From assembly GCA_963759875.1 (NCBI GenBank), contig CAVXBB010000016.1, forward strand, positions 745,579 through 809,578: a stretch of 64,000 bases of DNA, in the 5' to 3' direction. A model generated the notes under the pieces. The model was not told the DNA's origin, did no database searches, and was given only the letters and a program-made list of their open reading frames with translations. This document shows, piece after piece, positions 6,407 through 26,147 of this stretch. Numbering within the stretch: position 1 is the stretch's first letter; the number at the start of each line of letters is the position of its first letter. The position numbers and the translations under genes were made by a program. The stretch is from an uncultured Acidobacteriaceae bacterium (GTDB taxonomy: Bacteria > Acidobacteriota > Terriglobia > Terriglobales > Acidobacteriaceae).

Positions 6407-7671
6407 ATGAAGTGTCGGGTTATCGCGGTTCTCGGCACGCGGCCTGAAGCTATCAAGTTGGCGTTGGTGATTCAGGAATTGCGCCGGCGTTCGGAAGAGT
6501 TTGAAACCGCCGTAGTCCATACCGGTCAGCATCGCACCATGCTCGACCATGCCCTGAAGTTCTTCAAGATCAAACCCGACTTCGATCTGGATGTCATGCG
6601 TCCCAATCAGACGCTGAACTCCCTTACCGCGCGCGTATTGGATACGGTCGAAAATGCCTGCCATCGCTTCGAGCCTAACATGGTGCTGGTGCAGGGCGAT
6701 ACTACAACGGCGTTTGCCTCCGCGCTGGCGGCGTACTACTGCAAGATTGCGGTTGGCCACATCGAGGCAGGCCTGCGCAGCCACGACATTTACAACCCGT
6801 TCCCGGAAGAAGCCAACCGTCGGCTGGTCTCGGTGCTGACCGAAATTCACTTTGCTCCCACTGCGCTTTCGCGCGGGAAAACCTGCTGGCCGAGGGCGTG
6901 CCTGCCGAAAAAATCGTGGTTACCGGCAACACCGTGATCGATACGCTTGCGCGCTCCTCAGCGCACTTGCCGCATTCCTGGGAGAACACGCCCCTGGCCG
7001 GCATCCCGTGACGATGGCTCCCGCCTGGTGCTGGTCACTTCTCATCGGCGCGAATCCTTGGGGTACGGATCAGGAGAATATGTGCCTGGCGCTCAAGGAT
7101 CTGGTGCAAGCGCATCCCGATATTCGCGTCATCTATCCCGTGCACATGAATCCCAACGTCCGCAGCACGGTGAATGCGCTGCTGCAGAATACGGACCGAA
7201 TCCATCTGACTGAACCGCTCGATTACATCACTTTCGTCAGCCTGTTGCGGCGTTGTTTCCTGGTGCTCACTGATTCCGGCGGAATTCAGGAAGAAGCGCC
7301 CACGTTCGGGAAGCCCGTGCTGGTGCTGCGCAAACTTACGGAGCGTCCGGAAGCTTCGCAGTTTGGCATGGCCAAAATCATCGGCATGTCGCGCGAGGGC
7401 ATCGTCAACGAGACCGAGTCACCTGCTCAACGATGCGGAAGCGTATCAGGACATGTCGGAGGGCGGAAATCCTTACGGGGACGGTCACGGTTCGGAGCGG
7501 ATCGTGGAGGCGGTGGCCCGCTGGCATGCGAAGAAGACTCCCGACTGCTCGGAGAGCCGACAAGCAATTCAAGCTGGCCGCCCGCGGACCGACTTCCGCG
7601 GCGTCGGCAAAGGAGCGACGCTCGACGGAAGAACGCAGTCGCAAAGCCGGCCGGCCGCAGGCAAGGAGTGA
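6407..7671 (+). pseudogene. wecB: UDP-N-acetylglucosamine 2-epimerase, at least 4 frame breaks
   Basis: Homology runs through five frame segments: MKCRVIAVLGTRPEAIKL...HIEAGLRS...EEANRRL; ARENLLAEGVPAEKIVVTGNTVIDTL; RLVLVTSHRRESLG; QENMCLALKDLVQAHPDIRVIYPVHMNPNV...DSGGIQEEAPTFGKPVLVLR; NPYGDGHGSERIVEAV. Frames go 2>1>2>0>1. Confidence 0.8.
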
Positions 7672-7704
7672 CCACGCAGCAAGCTCCTGCGTCTGGGCTG
7701 TCGG

Positions 7705-8960
7705 TTGCGCGCCATGATTTATGTTCTCTACATCATTGTTTTCGGCAGCATCTGTGTCTATACCGGCCGCCACTACTGGTTCACCCTGAATCGGCTGTTC
7801 GGTTTCCAGCGCCATCCTTACATCGACATCGACACCGCCGACTGGCCTCCCGTCACCGTGCTGGTGGCGGCTCACAATGAAGAAAAAGTTATCGCCCACA
7901 TTCTCGAGCCTTGATGACGGTGAAATATCCCGCGGACAAAATGCTGGTGATTCCGGTCAACGACCGTTCCACCGACCGCACCCGCGAGATCATCGATGAG
8001 TTTCGTCAGAGCGCTTTCCCGGGCGCATTCAGCCCTTTCCATCGGGCTCGCGGGCAAAGGCGGCAAAGCGGCAGCACTGAAAGATGCCATGGAACTGGTG
8101 ATCACCGAGGTCATCCTGATTTTCGATGCGGATTACATTCCCGGGCGCCGGGCTGATCAAGCAGCTGGTTGCGCCGTTCTTCGATCCCGAAGTCGGCGGC
8201 GTCATGGGCCGGGTCGTGCCTATGAATGTCGGGCACGAATCTGCTGACACGTCTGCTGGATCTGGAACGGTCGGGCGGCTACCAAGTGGATCAGCAGGCG
8301 CGCATGAACCTGCGCCTCGTGCCCGCAACATGGCGGCACGGTGGCGGGAGTCCGGTTGAGCGCTCTGCGGGAAATTGGCGGATGGAACGAGAACTCGCTG
8401 ACCGAAGACACCGACCTCACCTATCGCCTCTTGCTGAATGGCTGGAAAACCGCATACCAGAATCGGTCGGAGTGTTACGAGGAGGTTCCCGAAGTGTGGC
8501 CGGTGCGCGATCAAGCAGATCATGCGCTGGGCCAAGGGCCACAACCAGGCCATGGCGACATATGGTCTGCCTCTGCTGCTGGGCAAGAATCGCGCTACCC
8601 TGCGGGAACGGATTGATGGCACGTTGCTGCTGGGAGTGTATGCCATGGCGCCGGTCACGCTTATCGGCTGGGCGCTGGCGCTCGCAGTGTTTTATCAGGG
8701 CGTGGCTCCGCTGCATGGCGTCATCGCCTTGCTTTCTCTGACGGCCTACGCCGCCATCGGCAATCTCGCCGCTTTCTTCGAGATCGCCGCCGCGGCTCGA
8801 CTGGATGGCACGCGCAAGCGAATCTGCCTGCTGCCATTCCTCATTCTGGGATTTGCGGTCAGCATCTTCTCCGTCTCCCGCGCCGCGGCGGTTCAAATCA
8901 GCGATCTGGTGACCGGGGCTGAGTTCCACTGGGACAAAACTGAGCGTTTCGGAAGGTCTT
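7705..8960 (+). pseudogene. processive family-2 glycosyltransferase (polysaccharide synthase), at least 6 frame breaks
   Basis: Pieces in seven frame segments: VTVLVAAHNEEKVI; YPADKMLVIPVNDRSTDRT; GKGGKAAALKDAME..ILIFDADY; GGVMGRVVPMN; LLDLERSGGYQVDQQAR; SALREIGGWNENSLTEDTDLTYRLLLNGWK; IMRWAKG followed by TM helices. Confidence 0.75.
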
Positions 8961-10036: not shown

Positions 10037-11910
10037 ATGACGCGCACGCGGGTCGTCGTCGCGACGGGTTGTCTTATTCTCGTGGCCCTGATCGCATGGT
10101 CGTGGGCAGACCCACGACCGCTTTCGTTCTACTGCCGATCGACTGCTCTTGCTGGTGCCCGACGGCACCAGTTTCTCCAATCCTAAAGTCACCATGTGGC
10201 TTGACGCTGGCAGCGAAGAAGGACTTCATGTTGTCCCGGTTCATGACTCTGAATTTCTTCGTCCTCTTTGGGAGAGTCGAAGTGCGCAGGGGTGATTCTG
10301 CCGGATTCCATCCACCAGCAGGCCAGTGACCTTTTTGTCGCGACGCTCCACCGATTTGTAAGCCGACGGCGGAAAACTGATGCTGGTCTACGATGCCGGC
10401 ACGTTCTCTCTGAATGGCACTTATGCGGGCGGACGTTCCCGGCTGTCAGACCTGGCGGGCGTGGATTACGCTCTCTACGACAAACTTGGCGACAAGACGA
10501 TCCAATGGAGCAAGGTCACCAGCAGCAATGCGATGGTCAGTCAGATGGAAATACCTCCGGGAAAATACTATCCGTTCCATGCGGAAACCAGCGCCTCCGT
10601 TAAGAAGGGTGGTCCACCAATTACTCCCGCCGGAGACTTCGAAGTTGAGCTCAGGCGCTACAAGTATGGCGAGCTGCAATATCCCAGCTTCGTAACTTCC
10701 GGCAACTACGCGGCGAGGTTTTATTTCACTCCAGCAACGGACTCGTGGCCGGTGAACAGCCCTTTCAAAAAGGTTCCGTCTTGTTCGTGAATCTGCCTCT
10801 CGGATATCTGAAAGGCAACACGGACGGCTTACTGCTGCACGCTTTTCTCAGATATTTCGCCGGTCACGCGCTGGCTTTGCCTTACTTGATGTCCGTGCCG
10901 GATGGAGTCGGCGGGCTGGTGCTGAACTGGCACATCGACTCCAACGCCGCCATCAAGCCGCTGCAGGAGATGAGTTCATGGACTCTGCTGCAACAGGGGC
11001 CATACTCGATTCACATCACTGCCGGACCCGATGCGGGCAAGTTTGGCGACAGAAAGGGTTTTGACGTGGACCACAATCCCGTCAGCCAGAACCTGATCCG
11101 CCAATATCGTGAACCTGGGTTATCAGATCGGCAGCCACGGCGGCTGGATTCATGATTATTTTTCTGCGCACGTCGAAACCGATAATCCGAAAGACCTGGA
11201 ACAGTTTCTGGCTTTGAACCAAGAATTCTTTAGAGCAAGCTACGCGGCAAACCGGTCGATGAATATTCCGCTCCCAATGGCAATCAGCCGCCATGGGTGA
11301 CGCACTGGCTGGAGGCTCACGGTTTCGTCGCTTACTACTTCACCGGCGATACCGGAATGGGTCCGACGCAAGGCTATCGCAACGGCGAACGCGAAGCCCG
11401 CAACGTGTGGGCGTTTCCCATCCTCCATCTGGATCGGGCCGCGGGTTTCGAGGAGATGAGACCGGAAGGATATTCCAGCTCTGAGATCGAGCGCTGGCTT
11501 GCGGCGCATCACCGACTTCGCGGCCGAGCGCCGAATTGGTGAGGCTGGTCTATTTCCATCCGCCCGGAATTCTGCAATACCACGATGTGGTCGATCGGTG
11601 GATGGAACAGACCGGCCGGCTGAAAGCCGACGGACGATTTCGCTGGTACACCATGACCGACCTCGCCGCTTTCCTGAATTCGCGCAAGCAAGTGAAATGG
11701 AGCCTGTCGCACGAAGGCCGTTTCATGAAGCTCGACGCCACCGACCCCACTAATCTTGAGCATTTCGCTTGGTTTCTGCCGGAGCGCACCTTCACTCGTC
11801 CAACCGTAGTCACAGGCTCCGCCACCGTCACTAAACACACTGACGGATGGCTCATCGTCGCTGGTCCGGGCACTCACATTGAAATCGAAGCTGAGGCACC
11901 GTCGCAATGA
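10037..11910 (+). pseudogene. large anchored polysaccharide-modifying protein (deacetylase-like), at least 7 frame breaks
   Basis: Starts with signal-anchor MTRTRVVVATGCLILVALIAWSW. Later fragments (LVLNWHIDSNAAIKPLQEM, IGSHGGWIHDYF, VWAFPILHLDRAAGFEEM, VYFHPPGILQYHDVVDRWMEQ) lie in alternating frames. The deacetylase assignment is weak. Confidence 0.4.
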
Positions 11911-14041: not shown

Positions 14042-14118
14042 GGGCGCGTAGCTCAAACGGACAGAGCATCGGATTTCTAATCCGAGGGTTGCAGGTTCAA
14101 TTCCTGCCGCGCCTACCA
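14042..14118 (+). tRNA. tRNA-Arg (anticodon UCU), CCA encoded
   Basis: Hand-folded cloverleaf: acceptor GGGCGCG/CGCGCCT, D arm GCTC..GAGC, anticodon arm TCGGA-TTTCTAA-TCCGA (TCT), variable loop GGGTT, T arm GCAGG-TTCAATT-CCTGC, discriminator A, then CCA. Confidence 0.92.
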
Positions 14119-14425
14119 ACCTTTTCTACAGCTTAGGGGCCAATCTCAGTCTGAGTCATTGCAAGTTTATTGCAAGTTCGGCCAAAACAATGATTCATCA
14201 AACACAAGTGATCGCTCGTGTCACCAGAATAGCGATCCAACAAATTCGTCGCTTGCTATCGTAGTTGACTCCTAGCTTCAGCACACAAGTCGCCCACAGC
14301 GCGATGATTTCCTGCGGCGACAATTGACGAAATGAGCTGCCGACAGTCAGCCCCTAACGATGGGTAGAGATATTTGTAGCTGTCCCGAACTCAGCAGCCA
14401 TTGAGCCTGGCCTCGAGCACTCACG

Positions 14426-16669
14426 TCATGTGAAATAACGAAACCGGGCATTTATCTTCTTGTCAGTCGAGACGTGTTTCAAAATGTCTCCTACACGGCG
14501 GGCGGCCCGCACCGTTATAGGGTCACCCGAATCGAACTGAGTATTGTTGAAATTGAGCTTTGATAAGCCGACGAGTTCGCGGGCGAGGTCGGCGGCGCTG
14601 GTCTCACCATCCTCGCGCACAAATTCCAATGCTCGGGGTATGTAGGCGCCAGGGTAGACTTGGAAGTATGGAACGGTGCCCTTCAAGTACACGATTCCGG
14701 ACTTCCCGTCGAACAACATCGCGGTGCCGCGAACCATGGGCGAATCACCGGCGCGTAAGATACGAGCCCCTGATCGTCGCACGCTCACCAAATCGAGAAA
14801 TTCCAGTTTCTCGTCCTCCGCAGCCCGTTTGAATCCATCCTTTTCGTTAGCATTGAAGTAGGAGGTCTTGTGAAGGACGAGCCGAGCAGGCATGGTCTTA
14901 TGCTCGCGCCGATAGGTTGCCAGACCGTTCGCGAGCAACTCTTGCGCGTTCTCTTCGGACAAATGAGGGCTGCGGTCGGCTTTGTCGTAACTCGCACTCC
15001 CGCCCTGCACGATCAACCCCTCCCCGCGGTCGTCAAAAACTTGGGCCACGCTGGTCATGAGCTTGTCACCAGCCAGACTCCGGAAAAAGCTCACGCCTAC
15101 ATAGCATGTTGTTAGCACTGCAGGCTGTCGAGCAAGACGCCAAGGCACGCCTCCCGCCTTATAGTAAAGCGCCGTGTGGAAATTCCAGGCGGTCGTCGCC
15201 TTATCCTGCAAGCGCCTAGCGCGCATGCGCCCCGTCGATGCCGAGCCATACGTATCGGGCCGCGACAACTGACATGGCAGCTGGAGATCGATCGCCCGAG
15301 CTTTGAAGAGATCGTGAAAACTTAGCGTGGAAGGCGGCGATGTCGGCTGTTCCGGAGCAGGCTCTTGTAGTTCATCGATCGGAGGATCGGGCATCAGAGG
15401 GGCTTGCGGGGTGTCTCCTAACGCGAAAACCTCCGGAGGGGGTGCCACGACCAGTACATGGAGCCCAGTCTTTCCTGCGAGGTCGCGGGCGTGGTCCATA
15501 AAGGCGCCAACGATGTGCTCTAGTGGATCAGACCTGGCGAGTGCCGCCAAGAGTTCGTGACGCGTGATGGTACGCGTCGCCGCGTCTGACAACTCTAAGG
15601 AAGTTCCAAATACCTCTGGTGTCATACCTGGAAAAGGCGGCCGGAGCGCCTTCAGCTTCTGTTCGTCCGAAGTGACGCCGTGCTTGCACTGTTCCAACCA
15701 ATCGCGCATTCCGTCGACGGTGGCGGTTGTCCCGATCACACCGATTCGAATCGGGACGGGAATCCCGGTGCTTCCTTTGTCGAAGGCGCCAAAGGTCGAA
15801 AGACCAGCACGGATATCGATGTGCAATTTGTTCTGGTGGAACGCGAGCTGGGGCTCCTCTATGATTTGCAGCTTCATCCCTCGAGCTCCTTGTCTCTCGA
15901 CGGCAGCAGTGAGGGCGCGTCCAGCGCGGTCAGAGAGTTCTCGTCCACACAGGATGCGAACCGAAACGAAAACTAGGGGCGCGAACTCAAGCAGCCGCGA
16001 GCGATCCGCCCAAGTCCATGGCGCCCTAAGCGCCGCTTGCCATAGCAGTAGTTGACTCAACACCGAGCGGTTCCGCTCGAAGCGCTTGATTCCGGAAAGA
16101 CGATTTTCGTGATATCGCTCCAAGTCCATTCCATTCCGTGTGAAGCGATACGTCGGCGTAATCTCCAAATACCATTGGCCTCCCAGGAAGCGAAACCGCC
16201 CCTGAAACGCATTGTGACGTAGGTACTTATAAGGTTTTCCGCTCTTCGCCTTGTGCTCGTAGTGGGAAACAACCGTAGCGGTGCTACGGAGCTTGACGTT
16301 CGCGTATTTGAGGCGTCGAGGTAGTTCGTCCGGTCTACCCATGAAGGCATACACATCCTGGTCTTTGTGATATCGAATGCCCTGTGCCCAGAGATCTTCG
16401 CGCAATGAAGCGTTCAGCAGGTGCACAAATAACCGGCGCTTGTTCTCGTCATCTGAAATCGCCCACTCCTGTGCGTTGAATCGCTCCAAGCCGCCAACAT
16501 CGACAATCTTTCTCAGTTGCGAGTGCTCGGGATCGACAAAGCTGTACAGATTGCTGTCATGTAGCGTCCACGCTCCCGGGATGTAGACGGTGGACTTACC
16601 TGACGCGCCTCGTCTGAGCAGAAACCAAGAGTGCTTTACTGTCTTGCTCAACGCTGGGCCAATGTACAA
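14426..16669 (-). CDS. catalytically inactive short prokaryotic Argonaute (MID-PIWI) with fused APAZ-like N-terminal region
   Basis: 747-aa ORF with a TTG start. PIWI landmarks are WNFHTALYYKAGGVPWRLA, YVGVSFF and LVLHKTSYF (S and K where active Agos have Asp). Residues 265 onward begin MKLQIIEEPQLAFHQNKLHIDIRAGLSTFGAFD, as stand-alone short pAgos do. Residues 1-264 are an extra module. Confidence 0.75.
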   Translation of the reverse strand: MYIGPALSKTVKHSWFLLRRGASGKSTVYIPGAWTLHDSNLYSFVDPEHSQLRKIVDVGGLERFNAQEWAISDDENKRRLFVHLLNASLREDLWAQGIRYHKDQDVYAFMGRPDELPRRLKYANVKLRSTATVVSHYEHKAKSGKPYKYLRHNAFQGRFRFLGGQWYLEITPTYRFTRNGMDLERYHENRLSGIKRFERNRSVLSQLLLWQAALRAPWTWADRSRLLEFAPLVFVSVRILCGRELSDRAGRALTAAVERQGARGMKLQIIEEPQLAFHQNKLHIDIRAGLSTFGAFDKGSTGIPVPIRIGVIGTTATVDGMRDWLEQCKHGVTSDEQKLKALRPPFPGMTPEVFGTSLELSDAATRTITRHELLAALARSDPLEHIVGAFMDHARDLAGKTGLHVLVVAPPPEVFALGDTPQAPLMPDPPIDELQEPAPEQPTSPPSTLSFHDLFKARAIDLQLPCQLSRPDTYGSASTGRMRARRLQDKATTAWNFHTALYYKAGGVPWRLARQPAVLTTCYVGVSFFRSLAGDKLMTSVAQVFDDRGEGLIVQGGSASYDKADRSPHLSEENAQELLANGLATYRREHKTMPARLVLHKTSYFNANEKDGFKRAAEDEKLEFLDLVSVRRSGARILRAGDSPMVRGTAMLFDGKSGIVYLKGTVPYFQVYPGAYIPRALEFVREDGETSAADLARELVGLSKLNFNNTQFDSGDPITVRAARRVGDILKHVSTDKKINARFRYFT

Positions 16670-16673
16670 GGTG

Positions 16674-16976
16674 TCAGGAATGCCTTAACGGAATGAGATT
16701 GGCAAAGCCCTCCTCCACCTCCTCTGTTCGCCGATCCGATCCTTCTTGGGATCCATCTTGATGTAGTGTCGGAACCGGGACGGCTTGTGGTTTCGACGAT
16801 TCGCGAATCGGGACCGGCCGAGTTCGAAGGTACCCTTTGGTAAATGCTGCGGCTGAGGCGCACGCGTACTTGGTCCAGGCATCCTGCCGCCTGAATCCAA
16901 CGATGTCGCTTAGGCCCCGAATCGACAACATTGGAGTTCTATCCCGAGTGGCTCGGTGAACGCCGGCTGACTCCAT
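16674..16976 (-). pseudogene. possible remnant of the effector (SIR2-like?) part of the Argonaute gene
   Basis: The ~300 bp above the pAgo ORF contain only broken frames. One reads ...PTLHQDGSQEGSDRRTEEVEEGFANLIPL and abuts the pAgo frame (GIPDTLYIGPALS...). The resemblance to a SIR2_2 C-terminal end is only at pattern level. Confidence 0.2.
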
Positions 16977-17386
16977 CTCGATCGCCGCCTCGGGACGGAA
17001 AAGTGCTGGCCATCAATCCGACAGTCGGAAGTTACGTTTCCGCACAAGGAGCGTACGACAGCTACACGGAAAGCATGACGCCCGTAATCGTTCTGGGCAG
17101 TTCCGAGAGCGAGTTAAACGTGCGCGCGTACGTGGATGAGATCCTCGTCTCTCATCTTCCCGCGCCTGACAAAATGAAGGCGCAAATGAGCGTTCGTGGG
17201 TCAAATGTGAAAGTCGACCTGGAGTACGTGCGCACACAGCCGATCATTTCACCCAAGATCGAACTTTCCAACCAGCGCCAAGAACGCGTGGACGTCCGCG
17301 TTCTCCCGATCATCTTCAAGGTCAAGCCGGTCAAGGGCGCCAATCTCTATCCCGGCCAATTGGTGGATGTCTACATCGGAGGCTGA
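16931..17386 (+). pseudogene. HlyD-type membrane-fusion protein, C-terminal ~130 codons only
   Basis: ...VLAINPTVGSYVSAQG...LNVRAYVDEILVSHL...PGQLVDVYIGG is the beta-barrel end of an efflux adaptor. The N-terminal two thirds are absent. It overlaps the next gene by 20 nt. Confidence 0.7.
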
Positions 17387-18794
17387 TATGCATCGCTCTA
17401 CAGATTTTGTGATTGCGCTCATCGTTGCGGTTGTCGCGCTCTGCTCTTTTGCAGTCGCAGGGAACAAAGAACGTCCCAGCGTGCAAACGCCACAGACGTT
17501 CAAGGAACTCGGTAATTGGAAGCCGAGCGAACCGGGCGATCAACTCAGTAAAGGAAAGTGGTGGGAGCGATTCAACGATCCGCAACTGAACCGATTGGAA
17601 GAGTCGCTCGGCATCTCTAATCAGAACATCGCGGCGGCGATCGCGAACGTCGAGGCCTCTCGTGCGATCGTACGCCAGTCGCGCTCGCAATATTTCCCGC
17701 TTGTGACGGCGGGTGCCTCCTTCACGCGTTCGCGGCAGCCGATAGGGCCGAGCGGCGCAACGGCGAGCACATACTCAGGCACACTCGATGCTTCCTGGGA
17801 GCCCGATGTGTTTGGCCGTGTAAGAAGCGCTGTGAAGGCCGGCAGGTATGGTGTCCAGGTGAGTCTTGCGGACTTGGAGAACGTGCGTCTGTCCGCGCAA
17901 GCGGATCTTGCAAACGATTACTTCCTAATGAGAGTGCAAGACAGTCTGCAGCAAATCCTCGACACGACAGTCAGCGCCTACCAAGATGCTCTGGATGTGG
18001 CTCGTGCTCGCTATGCTGCTGGACTCGATTCAGACGAATCGGTCGCGCAAGCCGAGACACAACTCGAAACTACGCGGGCTCAATCTGTAAACGCCGGTGT
18101 GCTGCGCGCCCAATACGAGCACGCAATCGCCGTACTGATCGGACAGCCGGCTTCCAGCTTCACGGTGGCGCCGCAAGTCATCGCGTTGAATCCCGCTGCC
18201 GTTCCCGTTGGTGTTCCATCGGAACTGCTGGAACGGCGTCCGGACATCGCAGCCGAGGAACGCGCCGTTATGCAAGCCAACGCTCAGGTTGGCTTGAGTA
18301 AGAAAGCTTTCTTTCCCACGCTCCTGCTGACTGTCAGCGGCGGATTCCAGGGCAATTCCATCTCAGACTGGTTCAACTGGCCGGATCGCGTTTGGTCCAT
18401 TGGTACGAGCCTCACGCAGACTATTTTCGATGGCGGGTCACGACGTGCGACGGTGCAGCAGGCACAAGCAGTGTACGAGGGAACTGTCGCCAATTATCGT
18501 CAGACCGTTCTCACAGCTTTCCAACAGGTGGAAGACAATCTCGCAGCCGTTCGCATCTTGTCCGACGTGATCCGTGAGCAGGACTCAGGAGTCGAATCGG
18601 CAAGAAGAACCCTTGGAGAAGCCGATGTTCGATATCGTTCCGGCATCGATCCATACCTGAACGTGATCACTGCTCAAACTGCTCTCCTGAATGCTCAAGA
18701 GGCGGCGTTGACGTTCCGGCAACAACAGATCACGGCAAGCGTGAATTTAGTTAAGGCCCTGGGCGGCGGATGGGACGAGTCTCAGCTCCATTGA
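17367..18794 (+). CDS. efflux transporter outer-membrane lipoprotein, NodT family
   Basis: 475-aa ORF with lipobox-like VALC, two outer-membrane-efflux repeats, and ...SVNLVKALGGGW near the C-terminus. Confidence 0.88.
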   Translation: MSTSEADMHRSTDFVIALIVAVVALCSFAVAGNKERPSVQTPQTFKELGNWKPSEPGDQLSKGKWWERFNDPQLNRLEESLGISNQNIAAAIANVEASRAIVRQSRSQYFPLVTAGASFTRSRQPIGPSGATASTYSGTLDASWEPDVFGRVRSAVKAGRYGVQVSLADLENVRLSAQADLANDYFLMRVQDSLQQILDTTVSAYQDALDVARARYAAGLDSDESVAQAETQLETTRAQSVNAGVLRAQYEHAIAVLIGQPASSFTVAPQVIALNPAAVPVGVPSELLERRPDIAAEERAVMQANAQVGLSKKAFFPTLLLTVSGGFQGNSISDWFNWPDRVWSIGTSLTQTIFDGGSRRATVQQAQAVYEGTVANYRQTVLTAFQQVEDNLAAVRILSDVIREQDSGVESARRTLGEADVRYRSGIDPYLNVITAQTALLNAQEAALTFRQQQITASVNLVKALGGGWDESQLH

Positions 18795-19390
18795 TGATGA
18801 CTTGCATTTGCTTTTCTCAGGAACGAGAAAAAGGAGAAGACGTGTGTAATAAGTTGCTCAATACGGCGAGGCTCGGATCTATATGCGTGCTGCTCATATG
18901 CTCCTCAGCTTTTGCGATGTCTCGACGCCTGCGGGCAGACAAGGAAGGGGCGGTTCGCGAACTGATTTCGAAGTGGATTGATGCCTATCAGCATCTCGAT
19001 GCCAAACAGGTTGCCAAACTCGAAACGCCGGATATGGAAACCGTAGACCGCTTCGGCGAGTTGCATGTGCCATCGGGACGAGATGAAAACGAAAGGCTCT
19101 GGTCAGATAGTTTCGAAGTAATTTCTGGAAATGCTGAGCACCCGGTTGTAACGATCGATCACATCCGACTCATTCGACCAGATGTTGCAATCGTGCAAAT
19201 CATTTGGAGATATCCGAATGGAATTCTGCTCGTGGATGGCGAGCGCCTTCCTCCTTTCTCGCAGACCGATACTTTTGTGGTGATCAAGTCACACGGAACG
19301 TGGTTGGTCGCAGCGCACAACATGCAGGAAAAGAAAGACAGCTCGACAAGGTCCAAGCCGGGTTGTGATGAACAGGTGAGCAAAAGATGA
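18770..19390 (+). CDS. secreted NTF2-like (SnoaL/DUF4440) protein
   Basis: Core AVRELISKWIDAYQHLDAKQV...VIKSHGTWLVAAHNMQ, with signal-like LGSICVLLICSSAFA. The true start is probably downstream of 18770. Confidence 0.6.
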   Translation: MGRVSAPLMMTCICFSQEREKGEDVCNKLLNTARLGSICVLLICSSAFAMSRRLRADKEGAVRELISKWIDAYQHLDAKQVAKLETPDMETVDRFGELHVPSGRDENERLWSDSFEVISGNAEHPVVTIDHIRLIRPDVAIVQIIWRYPNGILLVDGERLPPFSQTDTFVVIKSHGTWLVAAHNMQEKKDSSTRSKPGCDEQVSKR

Positions 19391-24946: not shown

Positions 24947-26147
24947 CTAGTTCGCGCGCGAGCGTTCCTTGCTGTGGAGCAGCAAGAGGTAAATCCAGAT
25001 CTCCAGTTGGGCCATCTGGATGCGGACAAGTTCAGGATCATCCGCAAACGTATGCACGAACTTCTGCGTACGGTTTACGCTTTCGCTGAATTGCAGCAGC
25101 GTGTCAGCTTCGCCCGCTCTTTCCTCGCCCAGGACGTAATCGAGCCGCATCCGACGAGTCGGCTGGGCAATGTTTTTCGGACGGGCTTGCCAAATAGCAG
25201 TAGTTTTAACCTCGGCGTCCGGAGCAAGCGCGTGCAGAATGTCCGTAAATAGTTCGCGGATGCCTGCCATACCAAGCCGGGCGCCAGCTATACCGCCGCC
25301 CCCCAGATTCCGCCACGCCTGCCGGCGGAGTTCGAGCAGGCGCTCGTCGAAATCCCGCAACGCTAGTTCAAGTTTCTCGCCAATCTCTTCATCGCGGTGC
25401 GGCTTGCCGTGCCCTGCCCGCTCGCCGCCTTCCGAGGGTGGCAGGCGTGGCGGCAGACGGCAGACCAGCTCGGCGTGGTCGAAGACGAACCTGGCTCGCG
25501 ACCGCCAGTCGATCCGGGGACACCGTCGCGTGAGGCAGGATCGCTGTCGCGTGGAACGTCTCCAGTGCCGCGGTATTAAGGACGCAATCCTCAAGCAGCT
25601 GAGCGCGACTGGCCAGCACGTTACCGGGCCAGTTGAGCACAGCGGTTTCGGGAATGGTGAAATTGATTCGCGCCATCTCCGCGATCTCGGCAGTGACGGA
25701 CTCGAAATCGTGGAGCCACTTTTGGTCTGCAAGCCTCAGTGCATCCAAGGCTAGCCGATGGGAATCAAGCTGCGATGCGAAGTGCATCCCAATCTCTGCA
25801 ACAGTGGTGCGAAGCGGGGTAAGGGTCTGGGCAAATTCCACCTCGATGCTCGCAGTCATCTCGGATAGACGCGCAGCATTGGCTTGACACGCGCGGAATT
25901 CCGGACTCATCTGAAAAGAAGCAATTGCACGGGACGCGAGGTTCAGTTCCTTGACCAAGGGGCTCGATGCGAGATCTATGGATAACTTTTCTATAGCGAG
26001 CGCACTCGTCGGAACCAGGATGTCTACCGCGCGCGTCTGCCTCAGGAGGCGTTCCAATTCCGGTTGAGCGAACCGCAGTTGGCGCTCGGCGTTGCCCATA
26101 AGATTGAGTTCGGTCAGGAGCCGCAGAATGGAGTCCACTTCTTTCAT
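24947..26147 (-). pseudogene. helical protein with C-terminal HEPN-like R-x5-H motif, one frame break
   Basis: The N-terminal ~210 codons are in the frame of ORF 25389..26147 and the C-terminal ~180 codons in the frame of ORF 24947..25732. The switch lies near 25470-25520 (GGGG run at 25516-25519). The C-terminal part contains NRTQKFVH. Confidence 0.5.

What the first reader, a model, noticed from the sequence alone, without database searches (positions are those of the whole stretch)
14042..16669. Inactive short pAgo with a fused APAZ-like N-terminus and no effector, next to tRNA-Arg: a decapitated SPARSA-type gene or a new architecture
- **Argonaute call.** The 747-aa minus-strand ORF has MID-PIWI hallmarks: FHDLFKA..CQL..LQDKATTAWNFHTALYYKAGGVPWRLA, then YVGVSFF and LVLHKTSYF. 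In those two motifs S and K replace the catalytic Asp residues of active Agos.
- **Extra N-terminal module.** Residue 265 onward begins MKLQIIEEPQLAFHQNKLHIDIRAGLSTFGAFD, which is how free-standing ~480-aa short pAgos begin. Residues 1-264 (for example YLRHNAFQGRFRFLGGQWYLEITPTYRFTRNG) are therefore an extra module. It sits where the APAZ domain sits in single-chain SIR2-APAZ-pAgo proteins.
- **No effector.** Known short-pAgo systems need a SIR2, TIR or nuclease effector. No such ORF exists here. Only ~300 bp of broken frames separate the gene from an oppositely oriented truncated efflux gene.
- **Location.** The gene lies 308 bp from the 3' end of tRNA-Arg(UCU), a classical island hotspot.
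Basis: partly seen in the sequence, partly recalled or inferred. Interest (0 to 1): 0.8.

Follow-up and report, generated by a model that had tools for sequence, protein, structure and literature searches.

The report
Broken nucleosidase-Argonaute defence gene pair
The "747-aa fused Argonaute" is an intact ~483-aa short Argonaute gene preceded by the frameshifted, beheaded remnant of its partner gene, whose nucleosidase effector domain was lost in a deletion, so this is a recently inactivated copy of a known type of bacterial defence system and not a new architecture.

Summary
The ORF (14426-16669, minus), the tRNA-Arg(UCU) and the short-pAgo identity are all real. The 747-aa "gene" is not.

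- **Relatives.** All close relatives (75-92% identity) are free-standing ~482-aa pAgos. Each is preceded by a ~597-aa partner (N-terminal PNP_UDP_1 nucleosidase domain plus C-terminal APAZ) that overlaps the pAgo start by ATGA.
- **Lesions in the window's partner gene.**
  1. A deletion joint at 16986 removes codons 1-228 and its promoter region. The same deletion removes most of a divergent efflux operon.
  2. A 2-bp deletion at 16681/16680 creates an immediate TGA.
  3. A 1-bp insertion at 15972 shifts APAZ codons ~333-566 into the pAgo frame. This produces the long ORF, whose TTG "start" is an ancestral internal Leu codon.
- **No native fusion.** An exhaustive search of 1.84 billion representative proteins listed no ~750-aa APAZ-pAgo chain among its best 150 hits.
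- **Timing.** Lineage dN/dS (0.13-0.28) and near-absence of private changes at conserved sites indicate recent inactivation.
"Decapitated" is right. "SPARSA-type" is wrong, because the lost effector is a PNP/MTAN-like nucleosidase, a short-pAgo effector already noted by Rousset et al. 2023. "New architecture" is not supported.

Interest is low.

The parts
14042..14118 (+). tRNA-Arg (anticodon TCT)
   Evidence: ARAGORN. It is the only tRNA in the window. No repeat of its 3' end occurs elsewhere in the 64 kb.
14119..14425 (.). 307-bp spacer between the tRNA and the pAgo stop; no recognisable feature
   Evidence: Homology to pAgo cassettes of other genomes ends at 14415-14425. There is no integrase or att repeat.
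14426..15877 (-). Intact short pAgo gene (MID-PIWI, 483 aa, ATG 15877-15875)
   Evidence: - PADLOC pAgo_I 1.5e-144.
- PDB SPARDA pAgos 4.9e-87.
- 120 homologues of 424-483 aa (118 of them 474-483 aa) at 75-89% identity, nearly all matching residues 265-747 only.
- 92% identity to L015.
- Lineage dN/dS 0.21.
- 3 private changes at 258 conserved sites, within the control range.
15886..15891 (-). AAGGAG Shine-Dalgarno for the pAgo, 8 nt upstream of its ATG, inside the partner's 3' end
   Evidence: Read from the sequence. It is conserved as GACAAGGAG in L001 and L003.
15874..15971 (-). Ancestral 3' tail of the partner (APAZ residues ~567-597) in its original frame, ending in the ATGA overlap (15877-15874) with the pAgo start
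   Evidence: tblastn frame -2, partner residues 560-597; nucleotide alignment.
15972..15972 (-). 1-bp (T) insertion that shifts the APAZ reading frame into the pAgo frame
   Evidence: It is private to the window: all 7 aligned relatives lack it (alignment).
15973..16669 (-). APAZ remnant (partner residues ~333-566) in its native codon frame; the TTG at 16669 is an ancestral Leu codon (…DTLYIAPA…)
   Evidence: - tblastn 81% identity to the L003 partner residues 331-567.
- PADLOC APAZ profiles 4.8e-56.
- dN/dS 0.13.
16674..16681 (-). 2-bp deletion (TTTT to TT, between 16681 and 16680) and the TGA it creates (16676-16674)
   Evidence: All 7 relatives have TT here. The closest relative L015 reads CATTTTCC against the window's CATTCC.
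16677..16986 (-). Stub of the PNP_UDP_1 nucleosidase effector domain plus linker (partner residues ~229-331), without its first ~228 codons
   Evidence: - tblastn frame -3, 74% identity to L003 residues 219-329.
- Homology of relatives whose alignment reaches the joint stops at 16979-16986, 16985/16986 in the closest.
- Pfam PNP_UDP_1 covers residues ~8-280 of intact partners.
16986..16986 (.). Deletion joint with 1-bp microhomology, joining the truncated partner gene to a truncated, divergently oriented efflux adaptor gene
   Evidence: Cassette homology covers 14422-16986. Efflux-locus homology covers 16986-18829. The joint sequences are compared.
16988..17386 (+). 3' fragment (residues 228-359 of 359) of a periplasmic adaptor gene of an ABC-type efflux operon
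   Evidence: tblastn 95% identity to the L040 adaptor residues 228-359. The L040 TetR regulator, FtsX-like permease, ABC ATPase and adaptor residues 1-227 are absent from the whole window.
17367..18794 (+). Intact outer-membrane efflux protein (OEP family)
   Evidence: Pfam PF02321 2.5e-48; 96-98% identical in metagenome contigs L037-L040.

Best explanation
This is a recently inactivated copy of a two-gene short-Argonaute defence cassette.

**Intact form (shown in relatives).** A ~597-aa partner carries an N-terminal PNP_UDP_1 (MTAN/Cap17-like nucleosidase) effector and a C-terminal APAZ domain. It is followed by a ~482-aa catalytically dead MID-PIWI pAgo, and the two genes overlap by ATGA.

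**Inferred mechanism of the intact system.** This is by analogy with SPARTA, SPARDA and SPARHA and with Rousset et al. 2023. The APAZ-pAgo heterodimer loads a small guide and recognises invader DNA. It then oligomerises and switches on the nucleosidase, which depletes (d)ATP or a related nucleotide and aborts infection.

**State in the window (shown).**
- One illegitimate-recombination deletion, with its joint at 16986, removed the partner's promoter region and first ~228 codons. It also removed a TetR gene, an ABC permease gene, an ABC ATPase gene and 227 codons of an adaptor gene from the neighbouring divergent efflux operon.
- The remnant carries two further frameshifts: -2 bp at 16681/16680 and +1 bp at 15972.
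- The +1 insertion happens to connect APAZ codons ~333-566 to the pAgo frame. This creates a 747-codon ORF that an ORF finder starts at an internal Leu (TTG) codon.
- The pAgo itself is intact and keeps its own Shine-Dalgarno sequence and ATG.

**Inferred consequence.** With no effector and no obvious promoter, the locus no longer works as an abortive-infection system. The pAgo is an orphan that has not yet had time to decay.
For: **Relatives and their partner gene**
- All 120 best homologues are 424-483 aa (118 of them 474-483 aa) and nearly all cover only residues 265-747.
- In L001, L003 and L006 the upstream gene is a 596-598-aa PNP_UDP_1 protein that overlaps the pAgo by 4 bp.
- Its domain layout is PNP residues ~8-280 plus APAZ residues ~312-586.

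**Lesions**
- The partner maps onto the window in three frames: residues 219-329, 330-567 and 560-597.
- The nucleotide alignment pinpoints the -2 and +1 indels as private to the window.
- Homology with relatives whose alignment reaches the joint ends at 16979-16986 (16985/16986 in the closest), and homology with efflux loci begins at 16986-16994.
- The missing efflux genes are nowhere in the window.
- The joint has 1-bp microhomology and no repeat.

**No native fusion**
- Among the best 150 hits of the 1.84-billion-protein library, no ~750-aa APAZ-pAgo chain appears. The only long ones are 913- and 981-aa Schlafen-APAZ-pAgo proteins that carry an effector.

**Recent inactivation**
- Lineage dN/dS is 0.13 for APAZ, 0.21 for the pAgo and 0.28 for the PNP stub.
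- Private substitutions at conserved sites are within control ranges.

**Sequence quality**
- The window has no private 1-2-bp indels against near-identical contigs over 3.7 kb of adjacent genes, so the frameshifts are unlikely to be sequencing noise.

**Decay elsewhere**
- Similar decay is common in other genomes: L009, L018 and L023 have truncated or deleted partners, and L027-L030 keep only pAgo stubs.

**Literature**
- PNP domains as short-pAgo effectors: bioRxiv 10.1101/2023.01.24.525353.
- Short pAgo systems defined as pAgo plus an APAZ-effector protein: PMC9097488.
- Activation by target-induced filament assembly: PMC12774872.
Against: - The pAgo and the APAZ remnant show no accumulated damage. 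That is also what continued function would predict.
- The 747-codon frame is open. The stub ORF's TGA lies only 4 nt before the TTG, so re-initiation is conceivable.
- Natural stand-alone APAZ genes exist (L036; L031-L034), and one starts only 8 codons upstream of the window's TTG.
- The promoter scan covers only sigma-70-type consensus and is weak evidence in this (probably acidobacterial) genome.
- The biochemical activity of the PNP-APAZ effector has not been demonstrated in any paper I could find.
- The deletion joint cannot be distinguished from a misassembly without reads.
Confidence: 0.85

Rival explanations
1. The effector-less APAZ-pAgo read-through protein, or the APAZ-less pAgo alone, is expressed and retained as a detoxified guide-dependent DNA binder. 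It might interfere with plasmids or phage by binding or filament formation without killing the cell.
For: - The frame is open over 747 codons.
- dN/dS is low on the window lineage for both APAZ (0.13) and the pAgo (0.21).
- There are few private changes at conserved sites.
- Natural stand-alone APAZ genes and natural single-chain APAZ-pAgo fusions show the parts tolerate both arrangements.
- Deleting the DREN effector of SPARDA did not prevent target-induced filament formation (PMC12774872).
- Intact pAgos beside a decapitated partner recur in L009 and L023.
Against: - No homologue with this layout appears among 120 close hits or the 150 best representatives listed from the exhaustive search of 1.84 billion proteins.
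- The TTG is an internal Leu codon with no suitably spaced Shine-Dalgarno sequence.
- The promoter region was deleted, and no sigma-70-like promoter was found.
- The +1 shift replaces the last ~30 APAZ residues. By extrapolation from the alignment to NbaSPARDA, these include the terminal beta-strand that pairs with the pAgo MID domain.
- L009's remnant carries a nonsense codon (TGG to TAG; alignment). Orphan pAgos beside dead partners are therefore a decay stage, not a design.
- The low dN/dS is equally explained by recent inactivation.
Confidence: 0.06
2. Assembly or sequencing artefact: the real genome carries an intact PNP-APAZ plus pAgo cassette. On this view the joint at 16986 is a misjoin and the two indels are homopolymer errors.
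For: - Both indels involve T runs.
- Three near-identical metagenome contigs (L037-L039) end 124-153 bp to the right of the joint, which hints at strain-level variation or an assembly break there.
Against: - The joint has no repeat that would cause a misjoin. It links two truncated genes with 1-bp microhomology, as real deletions do.
- Over the adjacent 3.7 kb the window shows no private 1-2-bp indels against L037-L040.
- A 2-bp contraction of a 4-T run is an unusual sequencing error.
- The pAgo (1.45 kb) and the neighbouring genes are frameshift-free.
Confidence: 0.05
3. The system is still functional because the effector is supplied in trans, for example by the Ago-associated-nuclease-like ORF at 24947-25732 or by an unlinked PNP gene, as in the natural three-gene split variants.
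For: - Split PNP | APAZ | pAgo operons exist (L036; L031-L034).
- An ORF about 8 kb away hits PF18165 pP_pnuc_1 (7.2e-13) and PADLOC Aga_Nuclease (2.8e-08).
Against: - In the split variants the PNP gene is immediately adjacent, with gaps of 11-18 bp.
- The window has no other PNP-APAZ-like sequence.
- The pP_pnuc_1 ORF is separated from the pAgo by unrelated efflux, MFS, Crp and hydrolase genes. It has no APAZ domain and itself looks frameshifted.
- Koopal et al. found that the APAZ protein is the only gene specifically associated with short pAgos (PMC9097488).
Confidence: 0.03

Closest known systems
Short pAgo systems with a PNP (Cap17/DtcC-type ATP-nucleosidase) effector, noted bioinformatically by Rousset et al. 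2023 (bioRxiv 10.1101/2023.01.24.525353; Cell 2023)
   Same: Intact relatives of the window's cassette have exactly this composition: a PNP_UDP_1 domain fused to APAZ, encoded just upstream of a short MID-PIWI pAgo. The window retains the last ~100 residues of the PNP/linker region, most of APAZ and the whole pAgo.
   Different: The window copy has lost about 228 N-terminal codons of the effector and carries two frameshifts, so it is a pseudogenised member. I did not test whether this PNP domain falls in the Cap17 clade. The only support is a PADLOC hit to the 'PN-superfamily' effector profile (7e-15). No biochemical study of a PNP-APAZ system was found.
SPARDA (short pAgo plus DREN/DUF4365-APAZ; PDB 9qbp, 9qbl, 9jsb; PMC12774872)
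   Same: It provides the closest solved structures for both parts: pAgo 4.9e-87 and APAZ 6.9e-26. It has the same two-gene layout, an inactive PIWI domain and an APAZ-pAgo heterodimer. Clade S2B in Koopal's scheme groups such variable-effector systems.
   Different: The effector head is a PD-(D/E)xK DREN nuclease, not a nucleosidase. Intact relatives of the window show only PNP_UDP_1 and no DUF4365.
   Same: The logic is the same: an APAZ-linked nucleotide-degrading effector controlled by an inactive short pAgo. S1A shows that APAZ and pAgo can be a single chain.
   Different: There is no SIR2 domain here or in any close relative. SIR2-APAZ profiles match much more weakly (1.8e-29 to 4.7e-16) than REase-APAZ profiles (4.8e-56). 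The window's single chain arises from a frameshift and is not a conserved fusion.
Schlafen(AlbA_2)-APAZ-pAgo single-chain proteins (P0291, 981 aa; P0323, 913 aa)
   Same: They are the only long single-chain relatives recovered. APAZ is followed by MID-PIWI in one polypeptide.
   Different: They retain an N-terminal effector-type domain, share only ~29-30% identity, and are 170-230 residues longer.

Membership tests
Short prokaryotic Argonaute (MID-PIWI only) | About 450-500-aa protein consisting of MID and PIWI domains, without N, L1 or PAZ | tested here: met
   Residues 265-746 align end to end with the short-pAgo profile PDLC02376 (1-454 of 455, 1.5e-144) and with 482-485-aa solved short pAgos. 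118 of the 120 listed homologues are 474-483 aa.
Short prokaryotic Argonaute (MID-PIWI only) | PIWI lacks the catalytic DEDX tetrad | not tested
I did not align it to an active Ago. Short pAgos as a class lack DEDX (PMC9097488).
Short prokaryotic Argonaute (MID-PIWI only) | Pfam Piwi domain (PF02171) hit | tested here: not met
   There was no Pfam family at E<=1, and the close homologues also have no precomputed Pfam domain. The Pfam model evidently does not reach this clade. This does not outweigh the PADLOC and PDB evidence.
Functional short pAgo system (pAgo plus APAZ protein carrying an effector domain; Koopal et al. 2022) | Adjacent APAZ-domain gene | tested here: met
   An APAZ remnant lies at 15973-16669, collinear with partner residues ~333-566. 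However, it is frameshifted at both ends.
Functional short pAgo system (pAgo plus APAZ protein carrying an effector domain; Koopal et al. 2022) | Intact effector domain N-terminal to APAZ | tested here: not met
   Only partner residues ~229-331 of the PNP/linker region remain. Residues 1-228 are deleted at the 16986 joint. No other copy exists in the window.
PNP-APAZ / short pAgo subtype (Rousset et al. 2023) | PNP_UDP_1-type nucleosidase domain fused to APAZ, encoded upstream of the pAgo | tested here: inconclusive
   The feature is met in orthologous cassettes (Pfam PF01048, 1.4e-12 to 4e-11; MTAN structures 9.6e-08 with EME and SD motifs aligned). In the window only the C-terminal third of the domain survives, so the window is a degraded member.
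PNP-APAZ / short pAgo subtype (Rousset et al. 2023) | PNP domain belongs to the immune Cap17/DtcC clade and cleaves (d)ATP | not testable with these tools
   This needs a phylogeny with the Cap17 and DtcC reference sequences, plus biochemistry. The only hint is the PADLOC 'Effector, PN-superfamily' hit at 7.2e-15.
SPARSA (SIR2-APAZ) | SIR2 domain on the APAZ protein | tested here: not met
   The partners of all close relatives show PNP_UDP_1 only. The window's upstream stub is homologous to that PNP domain.
SPARDA (DREN/DUF4365-APAZ) | DUF4365 (DREN) nuclease domain on the APAZ protein | tested here: not met
   There is no DUF4365 in the orthologous partners. DUF4365 appears only in more distant APAZ relatives such as P0283.
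Compact long-B pAgo (N-L1-PAZ-L2-MID-PIWI in one native chain) | The N-terminal region is the native N, L1, PAZ and L2 lobes of the same gene | tested here: not met
   The N-terminal 264 codons are collinear at 79-81% identity with the 3' part of a separate partner gene in relatives, and they join the pAgo frame only through a private 1-bp insertion. No ~750-aa homologue exists.
tRNA-integrated genomic island | Integrase next to the tRNA and a direct repeat of the tRNA 3' end at the far border | tested here: not met
   There is no second copy of the tRNA 3' 25-mer at up to 3 mismatches, and no integrase-sized ORF between the tRNA and the cassette. Related cassettes do sit beside integrases (L001, L006, L032), so an eroded island remains plausible.

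The most novel reading that the evidence does not exclude
After the toxic nucleosidase head was lost, the +1 frameshift created a bona fide single-chain APAZ-pAgo that lacks only the APAZ tail. On this reading the protein is expressed, for example by re-initiation at the TTG 4 nt after the stub ORF's stop, or from the pAgo's own Shine-Dalgarno sequence. It would be kept as an effector-less, guide-directed DNA-binding or filament-forming protein. That would be a natural "detoxified sensor", a stage that recurs when these cassettes decay (window, L009, L023).
Probability: 0.05. Interest if true: 0.6.

Novelty: new member of a known kind. Interest (0 to 1): 0.2.

Why it matters
As a discovery claim it matters little. 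The proposed new effector-less Argonaute architecture dissolves into a pseudogenised partner plus an orphan pAgo.

There are two modest points of value.

1. It is a clean, datable example of how an abortive-infection cassette is disarmed. The effector head and promoter were removed by one illegitimate deletion, which also cost the cell an efflux operon, and small frameshifts followed. The sensor gene remains pristine. Among 24 related loci from species-representative genomes, decayed copies are frequent.

2. The intact relatives form a large, mostly acidobacterial, soil-borne family of PNP-APAZ/short-pAgo systems, with more than 100 protein clusters at 75% identity or above. The family includes natural two-gene and three-gene (PNP | APAZ | pAgo) forms. 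I found no structure or biochemical study of it. An intact member such as L008, L010 or L001 would be the right object for experiments, not this window's copy.

The case also shows how ORF extension through a frameshifted upstream pseudogene can mimic a domain fusion.

Tried and rejected
- **Pfam and NCBIfam on the 747-aa ORF.** No hits. PADLOC and the PDB were needed to identify it.
- **Translating the 16.67-17.4 kb frames for profile scans.** I replaced this with tblastn of partner proteins.
- **Exact-sequence look-ups.** Neither the window's pAgo nor its outer-membrane protein is on record, so the source genome was not identified.
- **Word-indexed protein search with the APAZ remnant.** It returned only short (<=417 aa) ORFs and missed the full-length partners. 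It did lead to the split-gene variants.
- **2-bp deletion as an inherited natural PNP|APAZ split.** Rejected. The closest relative L015 and 6 others have the undeleted TTTT, and the natural splits in L036 and L031 have different junction sequences.
- **Efflux genes displaced elsewhere in the window (insertion or inversion rather than deletion).** Rejected. They are nowhere in the 64 kb.
- **SIR2, DREN, HNH or TIR as the lost effector.** Rejected by the Pfam results for orthologous partners.
- **The pP_pnuc_1 ORF 8 kb away as a trans effector.** It is not in the operon, has no APAZ domain and is apparently frameshifted.
- **Literature searches for a named or characterised PNP-APAZ system.** Nothing was found beyond Rousset et al. 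2023.
- **Pfam on the fragmented ORFs at 10.4-11.9 kb.** No hits.
- **Structure prediction.** Not run, because sequence matches to solved SPARDA complexes already settle the fold assignments.


Full report
**1. The observation**

The window contains a 747-codon ORF at 14426..16669 on the minus strand. It also contains a single tRNA, tRNA-Arg(TCT), at 14042-14118 on the plus strand, 307 bp from the ORF's stop.

- Pfam and NCBIfam give no hit for the ORF.
- PADLOC places residues 265-746 end to end on a short-pAgo profile (pAgo_I, 1.5e-144). It places residues ~31-235 on the APAZ (PNTD1-PNTD2) half of "REase-APAZ" partner profiles (4.8e-56). SIR2-APAZ profiles match far more weakly.
- Against solved structures, the C-terminal part matches the SPARDA pAgos 9qbp_B, 9qbl_B and 9jsb_A (4.9e-87 to 2.7e-77). 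The N-terminal part matches the APAZ half of DREN-APAZ (6.9e-26).

So the Argonaute call and the "extra APAZ-like module" are both real.

**2. The 747-aa protein is not a gene**

The 120 best homologues (75-89% identity) are 424-483 aa (118 of them 474-483 aa), and nearly all cover only residues 265-747. In three relatives with long contigs, including Edaphobacter dinghuensis, the pAgo is preceded by a 596-598-aa gene that overlaps its start by 4 bp (ATGA) and carries Pfam PNP_UDP_1.

Profiles show this partner is PNP_UDP_1 (residues ~8-280) plus APAZ (residues ~312-586). Its head resembles MTA/SAH nucleosidases, with the EME and SD motifs aligned.

tblastn maps this partner onto the window in three different frames:
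- residues 219-329 at 17012-16680;
- residues 330-567 at 16678-15971, which is the "747-aa" frame;
- residues 560-597 at 15990-15880, ending in the ancestral ATGA overlap.

The nucleotide alignment shows three lesions.

1. Homology to relatives whose alignment reaches this point ends between 16979 and 16986, at 16985/16986 in the closest. The first ~228 codons and everything upstream are gone.
2. A 2-bp deletion (TTTT to TT, between 16681 and 16680) is private to the window. It creates a TGA at 16676-16674.
3. A private 1-bp T insertion at 15972 shifts APAZ codons ~333-566 into the pAgo frame, 32 codons before the pAgo ATG.

The TTG "start" at 16669 is the Leu of the conserved …DTLYIAPA… motif. 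The pAgo keeps its own AAGGAG (15891-15886) 8 nt upstream of its ATG at 15877.

**3. The other side of the joint**

Near-identical metagenome contigs (94-97% nucleotide identity) and more distant ones align to the window starting at 16986-16994. In L040 the locus is a complete operon: TetR, FtsX-like permease, ABC ATPase, a 359-aa adaptor and an outer-membrane protein.

The window retains only adaptor residues 228-359 and the outer-membrane protein (Pfam OEP). The missing genes occur nowhere in the 64 kb.

The joint (…GATCGC[C]GCCTCGGG…) has 1 bp of microhomology and no repeat. One deletion therefore beheaded two divergently oriented genes.

**4. Are the lesions real, and how old are they?**

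Over 3.7 kb of adjacent sequence the window has no private 1-2-bp indels against L037-L040. It shows only in-frame 6- and 15-bp differences. The assembly is therefore not indel-prone.

I polarised substitutions with the closest relative L015 and four outgroups. The window lineage has dN/dS of 0.28 for the PNP stub, 0.13 for APAZ and 0.21 for the pAgo. The intact sister lineage has 0.34, 0.09 and 0.10.

The window's pAgo has 3 private changes at 258 sites that are at least 97% conserved; controls have a median of 1 and a maximum of 5. The partner remnant has 1 at 214 invariant sites; controls have 1-3. Inactivation is therefore recent.

**5. Is there a native effector-less design?**

An exhaustive phmmer search of 1.84 billion representative proteins with the whole 747-aa ORF listed no chain, among its best 150 hits, that combines the APAZ and pAgo parts at ~750 aa. 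The only long hits (913 and 981 aa) are Schlafen(AlbA_2)-APAZ-pAgo proteins that retain an effector head.

Natural three-gene variants with separate PNP, APAZ and pAgo genes do exist: L036, and L031-L034 where the same APAZ protein occurs on 8 contigs. Their junctions differ from the window's, and the PNP gene is always adjacent.

Among the 24 loci from species-representative genomes, decay is frequent:
- L009 and L023 have 5'-truncated partners with intact pAgos. L009's remnant also has a TGG to TAG nonsense codon.
- L018 has an internal deletion.
- L015 and L026 have frameshifted pAgos.
- L027-L030 keep only pAgo 3' stubs.

By extrapolating the alignment to the 442-aa NbaSPARDA partner, the window's +1 shift falls at about residue 402. 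That is before the terminal beta-strand (H410) that pairs with the pAgo MID domain (PMC12774872). The "fusion" therefore lacks a native APAZ C-terminus.

**6. Mechanism**

Shown: the architecture of intact relatives and the lesions in the window.

Inferred from established work on SPARTA (PMC9097488), SPARDA (PMC12774872) and SPARHA (PMC12738770), and from Rousset et al. (10.1101/2023.01.24.525353), who recorded PNP domains as short-pAgo effectors and proposed ATP degradation:
- The intact system senses invader DNA through a guide-loaded APAZ-pAgo heterodimer.
- It oligomerises and activates the nucleosidase, causing abortive infection.

The window's copy has no effector. It has lost its upstream region, and no sigma-70-like promoter lies within 13.9-17.5 kb (weak evidence). 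It is best read as a disarmed cassette with an orphan pAgo that is still intact.

**7. Context**

No att-like repeat of the tRNA 3' end exists in the window, and no integrase lies next to the tRNA. Related cassettes lie in defence or mobile islands beside integrases and other defence-type genes. An eroded island at tRNA-Arg is therefore plausible but unproven.

**8. Verdict**

- "Decapitated" is right. "SPARSA-type" and "new architecture" are not.
- The subtype (PNP-APAZ plus short pAgo) is already noted in the literature but, as far as the searched library shows, is uncharacterised.
- Interest in this locus is low. The intact family is the worthwhile experimental target.

Noticed in passing
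window 24947-26147 (-): ORF 24947-25732 hits Pfam PF18165 pP_pnuc_1, 'predicted pPIWI-associating nuclease' (7.2e-13), and weakly PADLOC Aga_Nuclease (2.8e-08). It overlaps a second minus-strand ORF (25389-26147) in another frame, so it may itself be a frameshifted gene. It is not in an operon with the pAgo, and no PIWI-RE or helicase partner was seen nearby.
   Followed up: partly
L036 4972-8330; L031 5027-7595; L033 3601-6823: Natural three-gene variants of the system, with PNP (320-336 aa), APAZ (267-294 aa) and pAgo as separate adjacent genes. The 267-aa APAZ protein P0131 recurs on 8 contigs from different samples, so the split is real in that lineage.
   Followed up: partly
L009 4692-7932 (Terriglobales MAG): A second independent case of an intact pAgo (480 aa) beside a 5'-truncated APAZ remnant that also carries a TGG to TAG nonsense codon. 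A 130-aa TIR_2-domain ORF (4e-17) lies about 600 bp upstream. This could be the relic of another effector or of a neighbouring defence gene.
   Followed up: partly
L007-L030 (species-representative genomes): Decay of this cassette is frequent: truncated or internally deleted partners (L009, L018, L023), frameshifted pAgos (L015, L026), frameshifted partners in long-read MAGs (L007, L016), and bare pAgo 3' stubs in large contigs (L027, L029, L030). Some of these may be MAG errors.
   Followed up: partly
P0291 (981 aa), P0323 (913 aa): Single-chain Schlafen(AlbA_2)-APAZ-pAgo proteins are the only long relatives of the 747-aa query in the exhaustive search.
   Followed up: partly
L037, L038, L039 (contig ends correspond to window 17139, 17129, 17110): Three metagenome contigs 96-97% identical to the window all terminate 124-153 bp to the right of the 16986 deletion joint. 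This may reflect strain polymorphism (deleted versus intact alleles) that breaks the assemblies there.
   Followed up: no
window 18829: Relative to the window, contigs L037-L039 carry an extra ~540 bp just downstream of the outer-membrane efflux gene. L040 diverges completely from the window beyond this point.
   Followed up: no
window 10380-11910 (+): Five consecutive same-strand ORFs of 63-136 aa in shifting frames look like a gene fragmented by frameshifts, just left of the YaiO-like gene and the tRNA. None has a Pfam hit, so this is unresolved.
   Followed up: partly
L001 3187-5997; L003 208-3783; L006 743-4100: Intact cassettes sit in defence-island-like neighbourhoods: Prok-E2/ThiF-type genes and an integrase in L001, a DruA-domain protein with an HATPase protein in L003, and guanylate-cyclase plus E2-like genes and integrases in L006.
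   Followed up: no
window 6852-7880 (+): This 342-aa ORF matches only positions 200-317 of the 347-position UDP-GlcNAc 2-epimerase profile, so it may be a truncated or chimeric gene.
   Followed up: no
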